The notes under the pieces were generated by a model. That model had not been told where the DNA came from, did not search any database, and saw only the letters and a list, made by a program, of their open reading frames with translations. A stretch of 64,000 bases of DNA from Thermoplasmatota archaeon (GTDB lineage: Archaea; Thermoplasmatota; Thermoplasmata; Halarchaeoplasmatales; Halarchaeoplasmataceae): the NCBI GenBank assembly GCA_051745305.1, contig JBNJDY010000001.1:2065-66064 (forward strand), given 5' to 3'. The position numbers and the translations under genes are program-made. Shown one piece after another: positions 57,009 to 63,496 of this stretch. Every line of letters starts with the position of its first letter. Position 1 is the first letter of the stretch.

Positions 57009-57533
57009 TTGGTGCCCTATTATTTGACTAGAACAGATAGCATGGCAGAAGTACAGCAATTGATCGACCAGGGAGAAAGATTACTAAATGAATTTGATTA
57101 CAAAGGAGCCCATAAAAAATTCAAAAAGGCTCTTGATAAAGATAAAAATGCGAGGGCTCATTTTGGTAAAGCTGAGGCTGCATTAGGGATACCTGAAATC
57201 GAATCAGAGGAAATCATAGCAGACTATGAAAAAGCTATCGAATTGGAAGAGAATCCGTTTTATCACCAAGCTGTAGCCTCTTTCTGCATAGATGTTGGTA
57301 AATTCGAAAAGGCTGAAGAGCATTATCGGGAAGCCGCTGAGCTTGATCCTGAGAACAAACCTCATTATCTCTCAGAATTAGCAGTTGGATACAGATTTAA
57401 AGCTCCTATTATGATGGAGAAACTCATCCAACAGACCGGCCAAGGTGAGGATATCATATTAAGAAAATCTCTCAACTATATGTTAGAAGCACTAGACATA
57501 GACAGGGATAAAGCAAAAGAATTACTTGGTTAA
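57009..57533 (+). CDS. TPR-repeat protein
   Basis: It has three or more TPR-like helical repeats (AHFGKAEAALG..., EEHYREAAELDPEN). Confidence 0.5.
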   Translation: MVPYYLTRTDSMAEVQQLIDQGERLLNEFDYKGAHKKFKKALDKDKNARAHFGKAEAALGIPEIESEEIIADYEKAIELEENPFYHQAVASFCIDVGKFEKAEEHYREAAELDPENKPHYLSELAVGYRFKAPIMMEKLIQQTGQGEDIILRKSLNYMLEALDIDRDKAKELLG

Positions 57534-58577: not shown

Positions 58578-59726
58578 ATGAAGTCGGAATTGTCATTGAA
58601 CTACAAAGATAAAGTTCTCCTATTTCTAAGAGATCACATCGGTTTGGATGAAGAAACCGACCTACCAGAAGATGTCACCCAAAAAGGTATTTCTGAAAAT
58701 ATAGGTATGTCAAGAACTCATGCATCGAGATTACTTAAAGAACTGAGGGAGAAAGGTTTTCTTAACGAAGATTTATGCAGTGTTGAGGGCCATGAACGTA
58801 AATTAAAAACTTACAGATTAACATCTAAAGGGTTTAAAAAGTCAGAAAAGCTCTATGAAGATTTTATGGAGAAAAAAGTTCCTATCGTTTATAAAGAAGG
58901 AAAAAAATCCATGAAGATCTCCAATGTGTTAGATAGATATGAAAAAAATCCCACGTTGTTAGAAATGATACGTATTTTAGAAAATGAAGAATTGCCTCTA
59001 AATATTTATGATACTGAAGAGACGATCACATTCCTTGAAGATGCGCCTGACTTCGAAGAAATGATCAATAGGAAAAGAGAATTGGAGGAATTAGAAAGAT
59101 GGTTTGAAAGCGATATTCCCGTAGCCGTTATACTCGGGAGAAGGGGATATGGTTGCTCGACTCTAGCTCGTTCTTTTATCGAAGGGAAGAATAGACATGT
59201 ATTATGGATTAAAGTCGCTAAAAAACCCTTAGAACGGATCAAAAAACAAATTGTATTTTTTTTAAAAGAGTTGGGTGCAGAAGAAAATAAAAACATAATT
59301 AAAAAACTGTGTCGGAAAAATGTTCTAGTTGTACTCGATGATTATTACGAAGTTGATGACGATCTAGTGGATTTTCTTGATGAATATATAAAAATAAGTG
59401 GTAGAGATGTCAAAAGCAAACTCCTTGTAACTTCAAGAAAAGGAATTCCCGTCTATGAAAGATTTTACAAGATCCAAGATGTGAACAACGACGATGTAAG
59501 AGAAATAGACATCTCACCATTAGATAAATATGATGCCCAAGAACTCTTAGGAACCCACTTAAAAAAAGAAGCTTTAGATAGATTGATGTTGATGACAAAA
59601 GGGTCTCCACTCTTACTTAAACTATTAAAAGTAGAAGATCGAAAAAAGCTTCATGAAGTAAGCCCCCTCAGTAAAGAACAGATTTCTTTATTGATATTTT
59701 TGAAATCGGAAGAATTGAAACAATAG
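58578..59726 (+). CDS. wHTH plus Arch_ATPase-like P-loop protein with degenerate Walker A (Lys replaced by Cys)
   Basis: The N-terminal HTH is ISENIGMSRTHASRLLKELREKGFL. The putative P-loop is VILGRRGYGCST, where GKT has become GCS. The Walker B-like motif is VLVVLDDYY. Confidence 0.55.
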   Translation: MKSELSLNYKDKVLLFLRDHIGLDEETDLPEDVTQKGISENIGMSRTHASRLLKELREKGFLNEDLCSVEGHERKLKTYRLTSKGFKKSEKLYEDFMEKKVPIVYKEGKKSMKISNVLDRYEKNPTLLEMIRILENEELPLNIYDTEETITFLEDAPDFEEMINRKRELEELERWFESDIPVAVILGRRGYGCSTLARSFIEGKNRHVLWIKVAKKPLERIKKQIVFFLKELGAEENKNIIKKLCRKNVLVVLDDYYEVDDDLVDFLDEYIKISGRDVKSKLLVTSRKGIPVYERFYKIQDVNNDDVREIDISPLDKYDAQELLGTHLKKEALDRLMLMTKGSPLLLKLLKVEDRKKLHEVSPLSKEQISLLIFLKSEELKQ

Positions 59727-59778
59727 CTGTATAAATAGTAATATTTTTATTACATAAGAGATTGGGAGATGTGATAAC

Positions 59779-60069
59779 ATGTATGCAGTATTTGAAGTTG
59801 ACTCCGATAAATTCGAGTTGATCCAGGATGTATTATCCGATGAGTTAGTTAGCCGCCAGACTACCAGTATAAGAGATGGTAAAAGTTTGGGTATGAAAGA
59901 AGACGTCAATTATTTCCTGGTTGAAGGTAGCGAAGAAGCAATTGAAAGAGCAGTTGAATTATTCAGTGAAGAAGGTATAGAAAAAGCTGAAAACGCTGAA
60001 GAAGTAAAAAAAGCTATCGAAAAAGAAGATGAAGCTGCTGCCCAAGGTATGGGAACGGTCTTCGGTTAA
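59779..60069 (+). CDS. Small acidic hypothetical protein
   Basis: This 96 aa E/D-rich protein is followed by a T-rich terminator. Confidence 0.35.
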   Translation: MYAVFEVDSDKFELIQDVLSDELVSRQTTSIRDGKSLGMKEDVNYFLVEGSEEAIERAVELFSEEGIEKAENAEEVKKAIEKEDEAAAQGMGTVFG

Positions 60070-60173: not shown

Positions 60174-61208
60174 GTGATAAACATGAAAGCGATGAACAAA
60201 AAATTAGGAGTGATATTGAGCGTAATACTGATAGCTTTAATCCCAGTATCACTAGCGACTACATCGATTGCCGAAGAAAGCGGACCGATAGATGGATTTG
60301 ACCCGCCAGTAGATGGTGGGGAAATGTTTAGGAACAGAACTGAAAACGCCGCTTCACACGGTGCAGCAACATTTTTGAAAGTTGAAGACTATGAACCTTG
60401 GGCGGCTTTAGTTATAAACGCCGGAGATCCAAGAGGTGTTGATGAGGTTACTGCAAGTTTTGAAAACGACACACTGAGGATAGAAGCCCAAGATAGCAAC
60501 TCTACAAATCACGTTACTATACTGATAAACAAAGAATTCGCTGACGAATATCTAGCTGATGCTGAAAGTGATTTAGAAATAGAAACAAGCGATGCTGTGA
60601 ACTACGACGGTTTAGAGAATTCCAACTCAAGTGCCGGCGAAGGAGCTGTTTACGTCTTCCATATCGAGCATTTCAGTACGCAATGGTTCGAGATAACGAG
60701 TTCAATCGTTGACATCGATCCACCCGTTGAGGGGGGAGAAACTTTCAGGAACACAGCTCAAAACGCTGCCTCTAATGGTGCAGCTTCATTCCTTTGGGTA
60801 GAGGATTATAAACCATGGGCCGCTTTAGTCATTAATGCTGGAGATCAGAGAGGTGTCGATGCGGTTACTGCAAGTTTTGAAAACGACACACTGAGGATAG
60901 AAGCCCAAGATAGCAACTCTACAAATCACGTTACTATACTGATAAACAAAGAATTCGCTGACGAATATCTAGCTGATGCTGAAAGTGATTTAGAAATAGA
61001 AACAAGCGATGCTGTGAACTACGACGGTTTAGAGAATTCCAACTCAAGTGCCGGTGGAGGAGCTGTTTACGTCTTCCATATCGAGCATTTCAGTACACAA
61101 TGGTTCGAGATATCCGCTGAGGAATCCATACCATTCATAGGTATTCCACTGATGTTGATGGCAGGAGCTATTCCAGTAGTGTACTATTACTTCAAGAAAA
61201 AAGAATAA
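60174..61208 (+). CDS. Secreted/cell-surface protein with two tandem 139-aa repeats and a C-terminal TM anchor
   Basis: It has a signal-peptide-like N-terminus, many NxS/T sequons, the duplicated module DPPV(D/E)GGE.FRN...STQWFEI, and the C-terminal anchor IPLMLMAGAIPVVYYYFKKKE. Confidence 0.65.
   Translation: MINMKAMNKKLGVILSVILIALIPVSLATTSIAEESGPIDGFDPPVDGGEMFRNRTENAASHGAATFLKVEDYEPWAALVINAGDPRGVDEVTASFENDTLRIEAQDSNSTNHVTILINKEFADEYLADAESDLEIETSDAVNYDGLENSNSSAGEGAVYVFHIEHFSTQWFEITSSIVDIDPPVEGGETFRNTAQNAASNGAASFLWVEDYKPWAALVINAGDQRGVDAVTASFENDTLRIEAQDSNSTNHVTILINKEFADEYLADAESDLEIETSDAVNYDGLENSNSSAGGGAVYVFHIEHFSTQWFEISAEESIPFIGIPLMLMAGAIPVVYYYFKKKE
60290..61123 (+). repeat. Two in-frame tandem direct repeats of 417 bp, with about 248 bp nearly identical between the copies
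   Basis: Segment 60447..60694 recurs at 60864..61111 with only about 3 mismatches. The first halves of the two units are more diverged. Confidence 0.8.
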
Positions 61209-61240: not shown

Positions 61241-62158
61241 CTATATTCCTGCTAATAATGTAACACGTGTTCTTTCACCCAAGTCAGGATCTTTTTTCAA
61301 TCCCCACATTATATTTGCATTTGGTGATCTTCGTCGGATCACTTCTAAAGCATCTTCTGCTTCTAATTCAGCAGAACCCTGACCGCTTGTAACCACGGTT
61401 AAAATAGTCTCGTATTTTTCTGGATTATCTAGCCACGGCGATCTGTAAGCTTCTTTGGATGCCCTTTTACCTCTTTTCCTACCTTTCCCGTAACCAGCAC
61501 CTATTCTAAATTCGTCCACACCTTTACAGAAGTCCCGAAGTGAAGAAATATCTCCTCTAGTCATAACCGCGTTGAAATCAGTAATAGGGAGCATAATAAT
61601 AGAATTCATAACATCGAAAGCTTTTGTCATAGGGAGATGAGGGCTCATTTTTAGTAATCTACTGTTCTCAAAAACACCTAAGACGTCACAGTTATTACTT
61701 ATTTTTTCCTTTGATTCTTTAGCTAGACGGTATCTAGAACCACCTTCATTTCTAAATGGCATTGCCACAAATACCATTGTGAAACCTTGTTTTGAAGCTT
61801 TTTTTGAAAATATAGGAGTGGTCCAACTTCCCGTTTGCCCTCCTAGACCAGATAATATGTAAAAGAGATCACCAGATTCTGTAGAACGATCTATTTTATC
61901 TTCAGAGAGGTTAGAATAAGAGTTTCTAAAATTTGCCATCGAATCGTAAGAGTTTCTAATCTCATGTTTATCGATATTAATAAAGGAACAGTTACTGAAT
62001 CGCCTTTTTTCACCAACTTCACAAAACGACATATTCGTTACCGATTGATCATCCATCAGAGAGGATAATATATTCCTTCCTGCACCACCTATGCCAAATA
62101 CTTTTGTTTCTGGTCTATCTCTATTTATTTCTGCTCCGAATCTCAAGGTTTTTCCCAT
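61241..62158 (-). CDS. Divergent FtsZ/tubulin-superfamily protein with a non-canonical GTP-binding signature
   Basis: It is FtsZ-like over its full length (FGIGGAGRNILS, a PF.NEG T5-like region, C-terminal domain). The glycine signature is GLGGQTGSW instead of GGGTGTG. Confidence 0.6.
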   Translation of the reverse strand: MGKTLRFGAEINRDRPETKVFGIGGAGRNILSSLMDDQSVTNMSFCEVGEKRRFSNCSFINIDKHEIRNSYDSMANFRNSYSNLSEDKIDRSTESGDLFYILSGLGGQTGSWTTPIFSKKASKQGFTMVFVAMPFRNEGGSRYRLAKESKEKISNNCDVLGVFENSRLLKMSPHLPMTKAFDVMNSIIMLPITDFNAVMTRGDISSLRDFCKGVDEFRIGAGYGKGRKRGKRASKEAYRSPWLDNPEKYETILTVVTSGQGSAELEAEDALEVIRRRSPNANIMWGLKKDPDLGERTRVTLLAGI

Positions 62159-62761: not shown

Positions 62762-63496
62762 ATGGTTCCTTGTTATGAGGTTATAGAAAATGAAGAAATA
62801 TCAGATGTAGAATGCCTTATCGCTGGTTTTCCTGCCATGGGATTGATAGGGGGGATTGCTAGTGAACAATTGATAAACAGTTTAGATATGGTTCAGGTAG
62901 CATCTCTTACTTGTGATGAGTTCCCTCCGACTTCGGTTATATTCGAAGGGGTACCAAGAAGGCCTTTAAGATTTTTTATTCATGAGGACTTGATGCTAGT
63001 TAAATCAGATATGGTTATACCAAATCACCTGATAACTAAATTAGCGGGTGAAATCATTGATTGGAGCATTGAAAAAGGAGTCCAGGAGATAATAACTCTA
63101 GACGGGATACCTCAAAAAGAAGATACTGACGAGGTGAAAATATGGGGTGCTTTGAGTAGTCGAGAACATACTGAAGAACTAGAAGAGATGGGTATAGAGA
63201 TGATCGAAAGAGGTGCGATTGCTGGCATCTCAAGTTCCCTTCTACTTGAAGCTGTAGAACATGACATTAAAGCACTCGGATTGTTCGCAGAGGGGGCTCA
63301 TAAAATACCAGACCCAAGAGCTTCTGCAGCATTGTTAGAAGTATTAGCAGAATATAAAAGTCTAGATATTGATATCCAGACACTGCTCGACAGTGCTGAT
63401 AAGCTAGAGAAAGAATTCGAAGATTTGGTACAGCAAACAGAGGAATTGAAAAAAGATATGGATAGTAAGTCCGCACATCCGCCCTTATACGGGTAA
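62762..63496 (+). CDS. PAC2-family proteasome assembly chaperone (PbaA/PbaB-like) with C-terminal HbYX motif
   Basis: It has the N-terminal AGFPAMGLIGGIA motif and a C-terminus ending ...PPLYG (hydrophobic-Tyr-X). Confidence 0.6.
   Translation: MVPCYEVIENEEISDVECLIAGFPAMGLIGGIASEQLINSLDMVQVASLTCDEFPPTSVIFEGVPRRPLRFFIHEDLMLVKSDMVIPNHLITKLAGEIIDWSIEKGVQEIITLDGIPQKEDTDEVKIWGALSSREHTEELEEMGIEMIERGAIAGISSSLLLEAVEHDIKALGLFAEGAHKIPDPRASAALLEVLAEYKSLDIDIQTLLDSADKLEKEFEDLVQQTEELKKDMDSKSAHPPLYG

What the first reader, a model, noticed from the sequence alone, without database searches (positions are those of the whole stretch)
58578..60069. wHTH-ATPase with Walker A Lys-to-Cys substitution, followed by a small acidic protein
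The 382-aa protein combines an N-terminal wHTH with an Arch_ATPase-like P-loop whose consensus GxRRxGKT reads GRRGYGCST. The essential lysine is replaced by Cys, although a DD Walker B remains. This suggests a non-hydrolysing scaffold or regulator. A 96-aa highly acidic protein follows 52 bp downstream and is then terminated by oligo-T tracts, so the pair looks like a two-gene unit of unknown function.
Basis: seen in the sequence. Interest (0 to 1): 0.5.

Follow-up and report, generated by a model that had tools for sequence, protein, structure and literature searches.

The report
Lysine-less STAND regulator plus stalk-tailed protein
An archaeal DNA-binding regulator whose ATPase-like switch module has lost its catalytic lysine lies next to a small, separately transcribed protein. 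That small protein is conserved across the phylum, and its tail copies the ribosome-stalk peptide that recruits translation factors.

Summary
The 382-aa ORF (58578-59726) has an N-terminal winged HTH and a P-loop, G187-R-R-G-Y-G-C193-S-T. A 96-aa acidic ORF follows 52 bp downstream and ends before oligo-T tracts.

The ATPase module is a truncated STAND NOD (NBD plus helical domain). Its closest solved relative is the Pyrococcus regulator PH0952. The Walker A lysine is missing across the whole family: that column reads A/S/T/C/N, with K only in rare distant members. The P-loop glycines, Ser/Thr, Walker B Asp, sensor-1 Arg and GxP motif are conserved. This fits a non-hydrolysing regulator.

The "two-gene unit" reading is not supported:
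- The small gene has its own promoter. An exact 14-mer BRE/TATA-like element sits in the spacer and recurs upstream of the gene in 22 related loci.
- It is far more conserved than the ATPase.
- It belongs to an unannotated family found across Thermoplasmatota, including Picrophilus and Ferroplasma. The family is usually not next to the STAND gene.
- Adjacency is confined to a halophilic clade, inside a colinear block of at least 12 genes.

An unexpected lead emerged. The small family's invariant C-terminus (acidic run, then G-h-G-x-h-F-G) matches the ribosomal stalk aP1 tail at every residue shown experimentally to bind aEF1A and aEF2.

The parts
58578..59726 (+). Gene for the 382-aa wHTH plus truncated STAND-like NOD protein. 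It lacks the Walker A lysine.
   Evidence: ORF. It is 100% identical to an NCBI Thermoplasmatota MAG protein and has 60 homologues. The best solved relative is PH0952, at E 1.4e-11. The AF2 model has pLDDT 87.6. Top Foldseek hits are CED-4, NLR resistosomes, PH0952, Apaf-1 and MalT.
58602..58820 (+). Winged helix-turn-helix DNA-binding domain, residues about 9-81.
   Evidence: Pfam HTH_Crp_2, HTH_IclR and MarR-type hits. The AF2 model has helices 9-18, 35-42 and 46-58 and wing strands 62-69 and 75-81. T34, Q35, G37, H48 and R51 are invariant.
59136..59162 (+). Degenerate Walker A / P-loop, G187-R-R-G190-Y-G192-C193-S194-T195. The C193 codon is at 59154-59156.
   Evidence: Aligned to GIAGIGKTS of PH0952. 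G190 and G192 are invariant and S/T194 is 28/28. The lysine column reads A11/S6/T5/C3/N2/K1.
59325..59342 (+). Walker B strand, LVVLDD, residues 250-255.
   Evidence: D254 is D in 27/28 and D255 in 22/28, and Y256 is invariant.
59430..59438 (+). Sensor-1-like T285-S-R287. A family-specific invariant stretch follows at residues 291-297 (P-x-Y-x-R-F-Y, PVYERFY in this protein).
   Evidence: T is present in 26/28 and R in 26/28. P291, Y293, R295, F296 and Y297 are invariant. The stretch is an insertion relative to PH0952.
59601..59609 (+). GxP motif of the helical domain, G342-S-P344.
   Evidence: G and P are 28/28. It aligns to the 'GHPLML' of PH0952. The GxP motif contacts the adenine and the P-loop in PH0952 (PMC6468293).
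59737..59750 (+). AGTAATATTTTTAT, the conserved BRE/TATA-like promoter element of the small gene. It lies inside the 52-bp spacer, and its T5 run (59744-59748) could also terminate the upstream gene.
   Evidence: It is the only exact copy in the 64-kb window. One exact copy occurs in each of 22 related loci, in the printed upstream regions 25-41 nt before the start of the small gene. That it acts as a promoter is inferred.
59764..59775 (+). Shine-Dalgarno-like GGGAGATGTGAT, ending 3 nt before the ATG.
   Evidence: Sequence. Many other lineages have GGTGAT at the same place upstream of their small gene. Function is inferred.
59779..60069 (+). Gene for the 96-aa acidic protein, called SMALL here. 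It has an alpha/beta core (residues 1-64), an acidic helix (73-93) and a stalk-like C-terminal peptide.
   Evidence: ORF. There are 252 family representatives. The AF2 model has pLDDT 82 with a b-a-a-b-b-a core plus a long helix. No Pfam family matches.
60025..60066 (+). C-terminal peptide E83-D-E-A-A-A-Q-G90-M-G-T-V-F95-G96, which resembles the aP1/aP0 ribosomal stalk tail (EEEALAGLSALFG).
   Evidence: G90, M91, G92, T93, V94, F95 and G96 are invariant among close relatives. The G-h-G-x-h-F motif is present in 154/171 family members and 116/123 loci. This ORF is the top scorer of 245 window ORFs against aP1 tails, z 5.4-7.4. Residue roles come from PMC4267659 and PMC5887453.
60073..60110 (+). 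Three oligo-T tracts (T7, T6, T7), a likely archaeal terminator of the small gene.
   Evidence: Sequence. Function is inferred from the established oligo-T termination signal of archaeal RNA polymerase.

Best explanation
These are two neighbouring but separately expressed genes. They do not form an operon or a dedicated pair.

(1) The 382-aa protein is a transcription-factor-type regulator conserved in its lineage. It has an N-terminal winged HTH, a linker, and the NBD and helical domain of a STAND (PH0952/MalT-like) nucleotide-binding oligomerisation module. It lacks the winged-helix subdomain, the arm and the repeat sensor. Its family lost the Walker A lysine long ago but kept the glycine-rich loop, the Ser/Thr, Walker B Asp, sensor-1 Arg and GxP motif. 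It most likely binds DNA and uses the degenerate pocket as a structural or ligand-binding oligomerisation module, not as a hydrolytic switch. This last step is inferred.

(2) The 96-aa protein is a housekeeping-type, independently transcribed member of an unannotated Thermoplasmatota-wide family. The family combines a small KH-like alpha/beta domain, an acidic helix and a C-terminal peptide. That peptide reproduces the factor-binding tail of the ribosomal stalk protein aP1. It most likely docks into the same hydrophobic grooves of translational GTPases or ABCE1, acting as a soluble decoy or an adaptor (inferred).

(3) The adjacency in this window is left over from an older arrangement, STAND> CobO-like< SMALL>, within a strongly colinear region.
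For: STAND identity:
- The profile of 28 homologues hits PH0952 (6mfv) at E 1.4e-11 across the NBD and helical domain, with the P-loops superposed.
- The top Foldseek hits are CED-4, plant NLR resistosomes, PH0952, Apaf-1 and MalT.
- PH0952 is itself a putative transcription regulator with an N-terminal DNA-binding domain (PMC6468293).

Family-wide loss of Lys with the other motifs retained.

Independent transcription of the small gene:
- An exact 14-mer, AGTAATATTTTTAT, sits in the spacer. It occurs once in the window and once upstream of the small gene in 22 loci, although the encoded proteins in several of those loci are only about 61% (SMALL) and 43-45% (STAND) identical to the window's.
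- Many other lineages have a canonical AGATTAATTTTATATA element plus a GGTGAT Shine-Dalgarno sequence upstream of the gene, even when it follows a same-strand gene.

Different distributions and contexts:
- The dominant context is NosD-like< PPAT-like> SMALL> HDAC< PolB>.
- STAND> CobO-like< or GAF< SMALL> occurs in 11 loci.
- 20 of 24 STAND-anchored halophile loci have SMALL directly downstream, and 0 of 19 distant homologue loci do.
- SMALL occurs in Picrophilus and Ferroplasma.

Stalk-like tail:
- Aligned from the C-terminus, G90/M91/V94/F95/G96 correspond to aP1 G102/L103/L106/F107/G108. L103S, L106S and F107S abolish aEF1A binding, and G102S, L103, L106 and F107 mutants abolish aEF2 binding. 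The terminal carboxylate makes a salt bridge (PMC4267659; PMC5887453). The conserved motif is described as L/GXXLF (PMC6125642).
- In the same genomes, P1 ends ...EEEAAAGLSALFG and SMALL ends ...SAISGMGAIFQ or ...SAASGMGMIFD.
- A stalk-tail regular expression run over all other ORFs of 127 loci recovered only genuine P1.
- The only recurrent NCBIfam hits of family members are archaeal L10/P0 models, matching at their C-terminal end.
- In L104 the order is P0> P1> SMALL> on one strand, with a 52-bp gap between P1 and SMALL.
Against: - No experiment exists for either protein.
- Whether the lysine-less pocket binds nucleotide cannot be decided from sequence.
- A basic residue at P-loop position 3 (R/K189, 24/28) could conceivably compensate for the lost lysine.
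- STAND and SMALL lie within about 1.3 kb of each other in several different Thermoplasmatota orders. A regulatory link, for example the wHTH acting on the strongly conserved SMALL promoter, is therefore not excluded.
- The SMALL tail differs systematically from P1: M for L, G for S, I for L, and often a final D. It could therefore serve a different partner.
- A tail-only profile did not retrieve stalk proteins from the PDB sequences.
- The NCBIfam P0 hits are weak (best E 7.8e-4) and seen in 5 of 60 members.
Confidence: 0.55

Rival explanations
1. One reading: the wHTH pseudo-ATPase and the acidic protein form a dedicated two-gene module. The acidic protein would be a partner, anti-regulator or DNA mimic of the regulator, and the two would be co-transcribed.
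For: - The genes lie on the same strand 52 bp apart.
- Direct adjacency is kept in 20 of 24 STAND-anchored hypersaline loci.
- The two families lie within about 1.3 kb of each other in 11 further loci from other Thermoplasmatota lineages.
- The SMALL promoter element is conserved unusually strongly, 14/14 nt. It could contain an operator.
Against: - SMALL has its own BRE/TATA-like and Shine-Dalgarno-like signals.
- The gap is variable, and in some lineages an ORF or an opposite-strand gene lies in between.
- Three halophile loci (L149-L151) and 19 distant STAND loci have no SMALL nearby.
- Most SMALL loci have no STAND gene.
- Rates of evolution differ widely between the two proteins.
- The whole block of at least 12 genes is colinear, so adjacency carries no specific signal.
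Confidence: 0.12
2. The ATPase is still catalytically competent. Another basic residue takes over the role of the missing Walker A lysine, as happens in kinases with a relocated lysine. Candidates are R/K189 at P-loop position 3 and the invariant R295 of the PVYERFY stretch.
For: - Position 189 is R or K in 24 of 28 sequences.
- G190, G192, S/T194, D254, R287 and the GxP motif are all retained. This argues that the pocket is still under selection.
- R295 is invariant.
Against: - Position 189 is Q or H in four members and L or M in some further homologues.
- In canonical P-loops the side chains at positions 2-3 point away from the phosphates (general structural knowledge, not tested here).
- The second Walker B acid, D255, is replaced by N, G or A in 6 of 28.
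- Lys survives only sporadically in distant members, which fits relaxed constraint.
Confidence: 0.15
3. The small protein's C-terminal hydrophobic-Phe-Gly is not a stalk mimic. It is a different docking motif, such as an HbYX-like tail for the 20S proteasome alpha-ring or a ligand for an unknown partner. The resemblance to aP1 would be convergent or coincidental.
For: - The tail consensus G-M-G-x-I-F-G/D differs systematically from the P1 tail G-L-S/G-A-L-F-G in the same genomes.
- A PAC2-family protein in the same window ends in PPLYG, an HbYX-type ending. Hydrophobic-aromatic-Gly termini therefore have other uses in this organism.
- Statistical support from profile searches is weak.
Against: - The match extends over about 10-13 residues: an acidic run, A-A, then G-h-[GS]-x-h-F-G at the extreme C-terminus. 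It is not limited to the last three residues.
- HbYX motifs prefer Tyr, whereas Phe is present in 116 of 116 tails that match the motif.
- The only other ORFs with this signature in 127 loci were P1 proteins.
- SMALL lies directly after P0-P1 in L104, and P1-P0 lie within about 5 kb in five other loci.
Confidence: 0.13

Closest known systems
PH0952 (Pyrococcus horikoshii) and MalT-type STAND transcription regulators (PDB 6mfv; PMC6468293)
   Same: - An N-terminal DNA-binding domain is followed by a STAND NBD and helical domain.
- The P-loop, Walker B, sensor-1 T-x-R and GxP motifs align.
- It is the best sequence match among solved structures, E 1.4e-11, and is among the top fold matches.
   Different: - There is no Walker A lysine, where PH0952 has GIGKT.
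- The protein ends about 38 residues after GxP, so the winged-helix subdomain is absent. In PH0952 that subdomain supplies the ADP-contacting His.
- The arm and the TPR sensor are also absent: 382 aa here against 653 aa for the crystallised PH0952 chain, which lacks its N-terminal domain.
- It carries a family-specific invariant stretch (PVYERFY in this protein) after sensor 1.
   Same: Both have a P-loop NTPase core joined to winged-helix DNA-binding domains. There are weak hits to PF01637 (24.5 bits) and to Drosophila ORC5 (E 9e-4), and a marginal one to the PF01637 structure 2qen (E 0.11).
   Different: - The PF01637 score is below the gathering threshold and covers only residues 163-213.
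- No NCBIfam Orc1/Cdc6 model matched.
- STAND proteins score far better.
- The wHTH is N-terminal here, not C-terminal.
Archaeal ribosomal stalk proteins aP1 (L12) and aP0 (L10): the C-terminal factor-binding tail
   Same: - The extreme C-terminus consists of an acidic run, small residues, then G-h-x-x-h-F-G-COOH.
- It matches aP1 G102, L103, L106, F107 and G108, the residues required for aEF1A and aEF2 binding.
- Weak recurrent hits fall on the C-terminal end of the NCBIfam P0 models.
   Different: - There is no aP1 N-terminal dimerisation domain and no Ala/Pro/Lys-rich hinge.
- The preceding part is a folded KH-like alpha/beta domain plus a helix.
- No PF00428 hit was found.
- The tail consensus is shifted: M for L, G for S, I for L, and often a final D.
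- The gene usually lies outside the rpl10-rpl12 operon.
Type I KH domain (beta-alpha-alpha-beta-beta-alpha)
   Different: - There is no GXXG loop. The equivalent loop carries the family's most conserved motif, DD-x-V-S-R-Q, which is acidic and polar.
- ACT and ferredoxin-like folds score equally well.
- Membership is not established.

Membership tests
STAND NTPases (NOD = NBD + helical domain + winged-helix domain) | NBD with a P-loop-type strand-loop-helix that aligns to known STAND proteins | tested here: met
   The profile hits PH0952 at E 1.4e-11 with the P-loops aligned. The top Foldseek hits are CED-4, NLRs, PH0952, Apaf-1 and MalT.
STAND NTPases (NOD = NBD + helical domain + winged-helix domain) | Canonical Walker A GxxxxGK[ST] with the catalytic lysine | tested here: not met
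   C193 occupies the Lys position. Across the family the column reads A11/S6/T5/C3/N2/K1. K is present only in P0060, L153 and L166.
STAND NTPases (NOD = NBD + helical domain + winged-helix domain) | Walker B hhhhDD, sensor-1 Arg, and GxP motif in the helical domain | tested here: met
   D254 is conserved in 27/28, D255 in 22/28, R287 in 26/28, and G342/P344 in 28/28.
STAND NTPases (NOD = NBD + helical domain + winged-helix domain) | Winged-helix subdomain after the helical domain (supplying the nucleotide-contacting His), plus a C-terminal sensor or repeat region | tested here: not met
   The protein ends at residue 382, about 38 residues and three short helices after GxP. The alignment to PH0952 stops at profile position 357. 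No repeat domain was found by Pfam.
Pfam PF01637 ATPase_2 (Arch_ATPase) | Score at or above the Pfam gathering threshold (33.2 bits) | tested here: not met
   The score is 24.5 bits and covers only residues 163-213. Some homologues carry precomputed PF01637 hits, so the relationship is at superfamily level.
ORC/Cdc6 AAA+ initiators | Significant match to Orc1/Cdc6 models, plus an AAA+ lid and a C-terminal winged helix | tested here: not met
   No NCBIfam Orc1/Cdc6 hit was found. Only a weak ORC5 hit, E 9e-4, was seen. The wHTH is N-terminal.
Anti-phage STAND/Avs or other defence systems | Match to PADLOC defence models; effector and sensor domains | tested here: not met
   Only weak HTH-type matches (Csa3/CARF HTH, E >= 1.4e-5) and one weak candidate-system (PDC-S27) NTPase match (E 1.4e-4) were found. 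The gene is single-copy and lies in a colinear housekeeping block.
Ribosomal stalk proteins aP1/P1/P2 (PF00428) | N-terminal helical dimerisation domain and flexible hinge; Pfam PF00428 match | tested here: not met
   No PF00428 hit was found for the window protein or for 60 family members. The predicted N-terminal part is an alpha/beta fold.
Ribosomal stalk proteins aP1/P1/P2 (PF00428) | Conserved C-terminal L/GXXLF factor-binding motif at the extreme C-terminus, after an acidic stretch | tested here: met
   The window protein ends EDEAAAQGMGTVFG. The motif is kept in 154/171 members and 116/123 loci. The z-score against aP1 tails is 5.4-7.4. The motif is defined in PMC6125642.
Ribosomal stalk proteins aP1/P1/P2 (PF00428) | Binding of aEF1A, aEF2, aIF5B or ABCE1 through the tail | not testable with these tools
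   This needs a binding assay or a multimer structure prediction.
Type I KH domain | beta-alpha-alpha-beta-beta-alpha fold with a GXXG loop between helices 1 and 2 | tested here: inconclusive

The most novel reading that the evidence does not exclude
The 96-aa protein founds an undescribed family, found across Thermoplasmatota and also in some DPANN archaea, of free-standing 'stalk-tail' proteins. Each is a small KH-like domain that carries the aP1-type C-terminal factor-binding peptide. It would engage translational GTPases or ABCE1 away from the ribosomal stalk, either as a decoy that tunes factor availability or as an adaptor that brings factors to whatever the conserved DD-x-VSRQ...RD surface binds. 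In several lineages that have it, P0 lacks its own tail, which hints at a redistribution of stalk-tail copies. Separately, the neighbouring lysine-less wHTH-STAND protein might act on the ultraconserved promoter of this gene.
Probability: 0.3. Interest if true: 0.75.

Novelty: new variant of a known kind. Interest (0 to 1): 0.45.

Why it matters
The regulator adds an archaeal example of a minimal STAND-type module: a DNA-binding domain, NBD and helical domain with no sensor and no catalytic lysine. Such proteins bear on how NOD modules can work without a hydrolytic cycle, a question also raised by P-loop-independent NLRs.

The more consequential lead is the small protein. The archaeal and eukaryotic stalk tail is the common handle for EF1A, EF2, IF5B and ABCE1, and in eukaryotes also for GCN2 and ribosome-inactivating toxins. 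In the literature I searched I found no description of a cellular non-ribosomal protein that carries this handle. If it binds the same factors, it would represent a new layer of translation control in archaea. The hypothesis can be tested directly, because homologues exist in the cultured genera Picrophilus and Ferroplasma.

Tried and rejected
- P-loop elsewhere: rejected. There is no other GK[ST], and both the profile and the structure place the loop at residues 187-195.
- Cys193 as a specific redox or metal residue: rejected. Cys occurs in only 3 of 28 homologues.
- ORC/Cdc6 or PF01637 membership: rejected. Scores are sub-threshold and STAND proteins score better.
- Anti-phage defence system: rejected.
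- RNA element in the region: none found in Rfam.
- The sigma-70 promoter and intrinsic-terminator scan does not apply to an archaeon and gave no enrichment.
- Tail-only profile (30 columns) against PDB sequences: no stalk hits, probably too short and too compositionally biased for HMMER. Uninformative.
- Whole-protein SMALL profile against the PDB: nothing significant.
- The afdb50 fold library was unavailable.
I therefore used the stricter DD.VSRQSI..RD pattern. It samples only about 15% of the family, so the context statistics are biased towards lineages that carry that exact motif.
- Acidity as mere halophile adaptation: rejected. The family and its tail are conserved in non-halophiles, for example Picrophilus.
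- Co-variation between P1 and SMALL tails: only six genomes carried both genes in the fetched DNA, too few to judge.
Full report
**Source and observation.** The window comes from a low-GC (37.9%) Thermoplasmatota MAG. The 382-aa protein is 100% identical to an NCBI 'Thermoplasmatota archaeon' protein, and its nearest named relatives are Candidatus Saliniplasma and Natronoplasma. T7, T6 and T7 tracts follow the second gene. Both are real genes. The first has 60 homologues at 32-100% identity. The second has 252 cluster representatives at E<=1e-3 in a library of 1.84 billion proteins, nearly all 90-105 aa long.

**The 382-aa protein: domains.**
- Pfam finds an N-terminal winged HTH. HTH_Crp_2 covers residues 14-63 and sits at threshold, with IclR and MarR-type hits alongside.
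- It also finds sub-threshold P-loop hits: PF01637 at 24.5 bits against a cut-off of 33.2, and NB-ARC at 23.1 against 23.5.
- A profile of 28 homologues (A1) finds the STAND protein PH0952 (PDB 6mfv) as by far the best solved relative, E 1.4e-11. The match spans the NBD and the helical domain. ORC5 follows at 9e-4, and the PF01637 structure 2qen scores only 0.11.
- The AF2 model (pLDDT 87.6) gives CED-4, plant NLR resistosomes, PH0952, Apaf-1 and MalT as top Foldseek hits, ahead of generic AAA+ proteins.
- PH0952 is itself described as a putative archaeal transcription regulator with an N-terminal DNA-binding domain, a NOD, an arm and a TPR sensor (PMC6468293).

The window protein is a shortened version of that design: wHTH, linker, NBD and helical domain. 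It stops about 38 residues after the GxP motif. It therefore lacks the NOD's winged-helix subdomain, the arm and any sensor repeats.

**The P-loop.**
- The loop G187-R-R-G190-Y-G192-C193-S194-T195 aligns on GIAGIGKTS of PH0952. In the model it lies between strand 182-187 and helix 193-201.
- The substitution is not specific to Cys or to this genome. The Lys column reads A11/S6/T5/C3/N2/K1 in A1, and A/S/T/I in further metagenomic homologues. K is retained only in a few 26-33%-identical outliers: P0060, L153 (GSQGFGKSS) and L166 (GSKGYGKTA).
- The rest of the site is conserved. G190 and G192 are invariant. S/T194 is 28/28, D254 is 27/28, D255 is 22/28, T285-x-R287 is 26/28 and G342-x-P344 is 28/28.
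- This pattern of an old lysine loss with the rest of the pocket retained fits a module that keeps its fold, and perhaps ligand binding, but not a normal hydrolytic cycle. That conclusion is an inference. A compensating basic residue (R/K189 in 24/28, or the invariant R295 in the family-specific PVYERFY stretch) cannot be excluded.
- PADLOC gives no defence-system membership, and Rfam finds nothing in the region.

**Is it a two-gene unit? Evidence from STAND-anchored loci.**
- In Saliniplasma- and Natronoplasma-like genomes the order is always RNA_binding(PF01877) - ... - TPR - TFS - GNAT - STAND - (56-57-aa ORF in some) - SMALL - ... - FtsZ-like(-).
- A metagenome scan anchored on the STAND family returned 43 loci. 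Among the 24 loci at 39-83% identity, all from three soda-lake-type sediment samples, 20 have SMALL directly downstream on the same strand with gaps of 19-284 bp.
- These lie inside a block of at least 12 colinear genes.
- Three loci (L149-L151) keep the upstream block and the STAND gene but have no SMALL within at least 2.8 kb. None of the 19 distant homologues (26-37% identity over the matched segment) has SMALL within 4 kb.

**Is it a two-gene unit? Evidence from SMALL-anchored loci.**
- A genome scan with a DNA pattern for the family motif DD.VSRQSI..RD returned 116 stretches, nearly all from Thermoplasmatota MAGs.
- The dominant context is NosD-like< PPAT-like> SMALL> HDAC< PolB>.
- A STAND homologue is present in 11 of these loci. 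An opposite-strand gene, either CobO-like or a GAF protein, separates it from SMALL.
- Direct adjacency is therefore specific to the halophilic clade. It looks like the remnant of an older arrangement, STAND> CobO-like< SMALL>.

**Is it a two-gene unit? Rates and transcription signals.**
- SMALL evolves far more slowly than its neighbour. Identities are 99% against 83% and 86% against 56% on the same contigs, and 61% against 43% in L001.
- The 52-bp spacer contains AGTAATATTTTTAT at 59737-59750, followed by GGGAGATGTGAT 3 nt before the ATG.
- That 14-mer is unique in the window. It occurs exactly once in each of 22 related loci. In the upstream regions printed it ends 25-41 nt before the SMALL start. 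This holds whether the upstream gene is the STAND gene or the 56-aa ORF.
- In many other lineages SMALL is preceded by a canonical AGATTAATTTTATATA element and a GGTGAT Shine-Dalgarno sequence, even when it follows a same-strand gene.
- I read this as SMALL having its own strong BRE/TATA promoter (inferred). Its T5 run could also terminate the STAND transcript.
- Taken together, the data do not support an operon or a dedicated pair. A looser regulatory link is not excluded.

**The 96-aa protein.**
- No Pfam or NCBIfam family covers it or 60 diverse relatives. Where sources name a member, the name is almost always 'hypothetical' or 'uncharacterized' (a few JGI labels look spurious), including the members from the cultured genera Picrophilus and Ferroplasma.
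- The family consensus is MYxVFxV...L-DD-x-VSRQS-I-x-x-RD...LG...Y-x-L-I-EG-x-E-A...A-x-EL...KIK-x-EE-x-x-AA-x-G-x-G-x-IFG.
- AF2 (pLDDT 82) predicts a beta-alpha-alpha-beta-beta-alpha core (residues 1-64) and a long acidic helix (73-93). The last residues have low confidence.

**The stalk-like tail.**
- The window protein ends EDEAAAQGMGTVFG. The motif G-h-[GSA]-x-h-[FLM] within three residues of the end occurs in 154 of 171 collected family members.
- In 116 of 123 locus-encoded members the logo is G-[M79 V13 I10 L9 F5]-G(116)-[M54 F21 L19 ...]-[I97 L11 V5 M3]-F-[G62 D37 ...].
- This corresponds, residue by residue from the C-terminus, to P. horikoshii aP1 G102-L103-S104-A105-L106-F107-G108 (EEEVSEEEALAGLSALFG).
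- In aP1, L103S, L106S and F107S abolish aEF1A binding. G102S and the same hydrophobic residues are required for aEF2 binding. The terminal carboxylate forms a salt bridge. The same peptide binds ABCE1, and the motif is summarised as L/GXXLF (PMC4267659, PMC5887453, PMC6125642).
- Among 245 stop-to-stop ORFs in the window, SMALL scores highest against three aP1 tails, with z of 5.4-7.4. The next best reach 2.5-3.1.
- A stalk-tail regular expression over all non-SMALL ORFs of 127 loci recovered only four genuine P1 proteins.
- In genomes where both genes were captured, P1 ends ...EEEAAAGLSALFG and SMALL ends ...SAISGMGAIFQ or ...SAASGMGMIFD.
- The only recurrent NCBIfam hits of family members are archaeal L10/P0 models. 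For the window protein the match is to the last 60 positions of the model.
- In L104 the genes run P0> P1> SMALL> on one strand with a 52-bp gap between P1 and SMALL. In five other loci P1 and P0 lie about 4-5 kb away.
- Against this reading: the profile-based statistics are weak. The tail is systematically shifted from the P1 consensus. An HbYX-like or other docking role remains possible.

**Most likely mechanism.**
- Shown: domain composition; family-wide loss of Lys with the other motifs retained; conserved upstream element; phyletic and contextual independence of the two genes; a stalk-like tail conserved across a phylum.
- Inferred for the regulator: it binds DNA through the wHTH and uses a non-hydrolysing NOD remnant for oligomerisation or ligand sensing.
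- Inferred for SMALL: it is monocistronic and well expressed. Its tail docks onto translational GTPases or ABCE1 as the aP1 tail does, while the conserved DD-x-VSRQ/RD surface of the core binds a second partner.

**Verdict.** The pseudo-ATPase regulator reading is supported and can be made more precise: a truncated STAND module whose lysine loss is shared by the whole family. The pair hypothesis is not supported. The regulator is a new variant of a known kind and is of modest interest. The stalk-tailed small protein is an uncharacterised family and the more interesting lead, but its function rests on motif-level inference only.

Noticed in passing
L022:21-389, L049:7430-7876, L086:4975-5880, L104:6977-7828, L119:5923-6771: The ribosomal P0 (L10) genes next to P1 in these Thermoplasmatota loci end without an acidic or LFG tail (...KKKIGK, ...KNKTT, ...VVKKE). 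The complete ones are 282-301 aa. P1 in the same loci keeps the tail. Whether loss of the P0 tail correlates with presence of the SMALL family was not tested.
   Followed up: partly
L104:6293-7828: P0, P1 and the SMALL homologue lie on one strand in that order, with 52 bp between P1 and SMALL. This is the only locus seen where SMALL sits at the end of the stalk operon.
   Followed up: partly
L001:5222-5395; L002:5214-5384 (also L133-L147): In Natronoplasma-like genomes a 56-57-aa hydrophobic ORF, ending ...IPFTYGGKK, lies between the STAND gene and SMALL. The SMALL promoter element follows it directly. It has no Pfam hit and is absent from the window.
   Followed up: no
window 57009-57533 (+): A 174-aa TPR protein is conserved three genes upstream of the STAND gene throughout the halophile clade (TPR-TFS-GNAT-STAND). 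PH0952 and MalT carry a TPR sensor in cis, so a sensor supplied in trans is conceivable. It is absent near the STAND gene in other lineages.
   Followed up: partly
window 61241-62158 (-); L006:2334-3251; L159: A short (305-aa) FtsZ/tubulin-family gene lies convergent and 1-2.5 kb downstream of the STAND gene in the halophile clade. It also lies near 29-33%-identical STAND homologues, so this neighbour persists over a wider range than SMALL.
   Followed up: partly
L008:4415-4945; L009:4412-4945; L035, L072, L088: A 176-aa CobA/CobO/BtuR-family gene is divergent from SMALL and sits between STAND and SMALL in several lineages. In Picrophilus (L171) SMALL follows CobQ and CobD, and its last 26 nt overlap the start of an AAA_18 (adenylate-kinase/Fap7-like) gene.
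   Followed up: no
window 60174-61208 (+): This 344-aa predicted secreted or membrane-anchored protein consists of two nearly identical tandem copies of about 160 aa (DPPV[DE]GGE[MT]FRN...HIEHFSTQWFEI). It has an N-terminal signal-like segment and a C-terminal hydrophobic segment, and no significant Pfam hit.
   Followed up: no
window 62762-63496 (+): By eye this looks like a PAC2 (proteasome-assembly-chaperone) family protein. It was not scanned against Pfam here. It ends in ...PPLYG, an HbYX-type C-terminus. This bears on the rival reading of SMALL's hydrophobic-Phe-Gly end.
   Followed up: no
window 59142-59144 (R189) and 59448-59468 (PVYERFY, aa 291-297): P-loop position 3 is R or K in 24 of 28 homologues. 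A stretch with five invariant residues (P-x-Y-x-R-F-Y, PVYERFY here) follows sensor 1 and is an insertion relative to PH0952. Either could be a compensating or inter-subunit basic residue.
   Followed up: no
P0139 (194 aa), P0096, P0124, P0165: Some SMALL family members are tandem duplications of the core domain or carry a 25-40-aa insertion before the acidic helix. In all of them the stalk-like tail is kept only at the extreme C-terminus.
   Followed up: no
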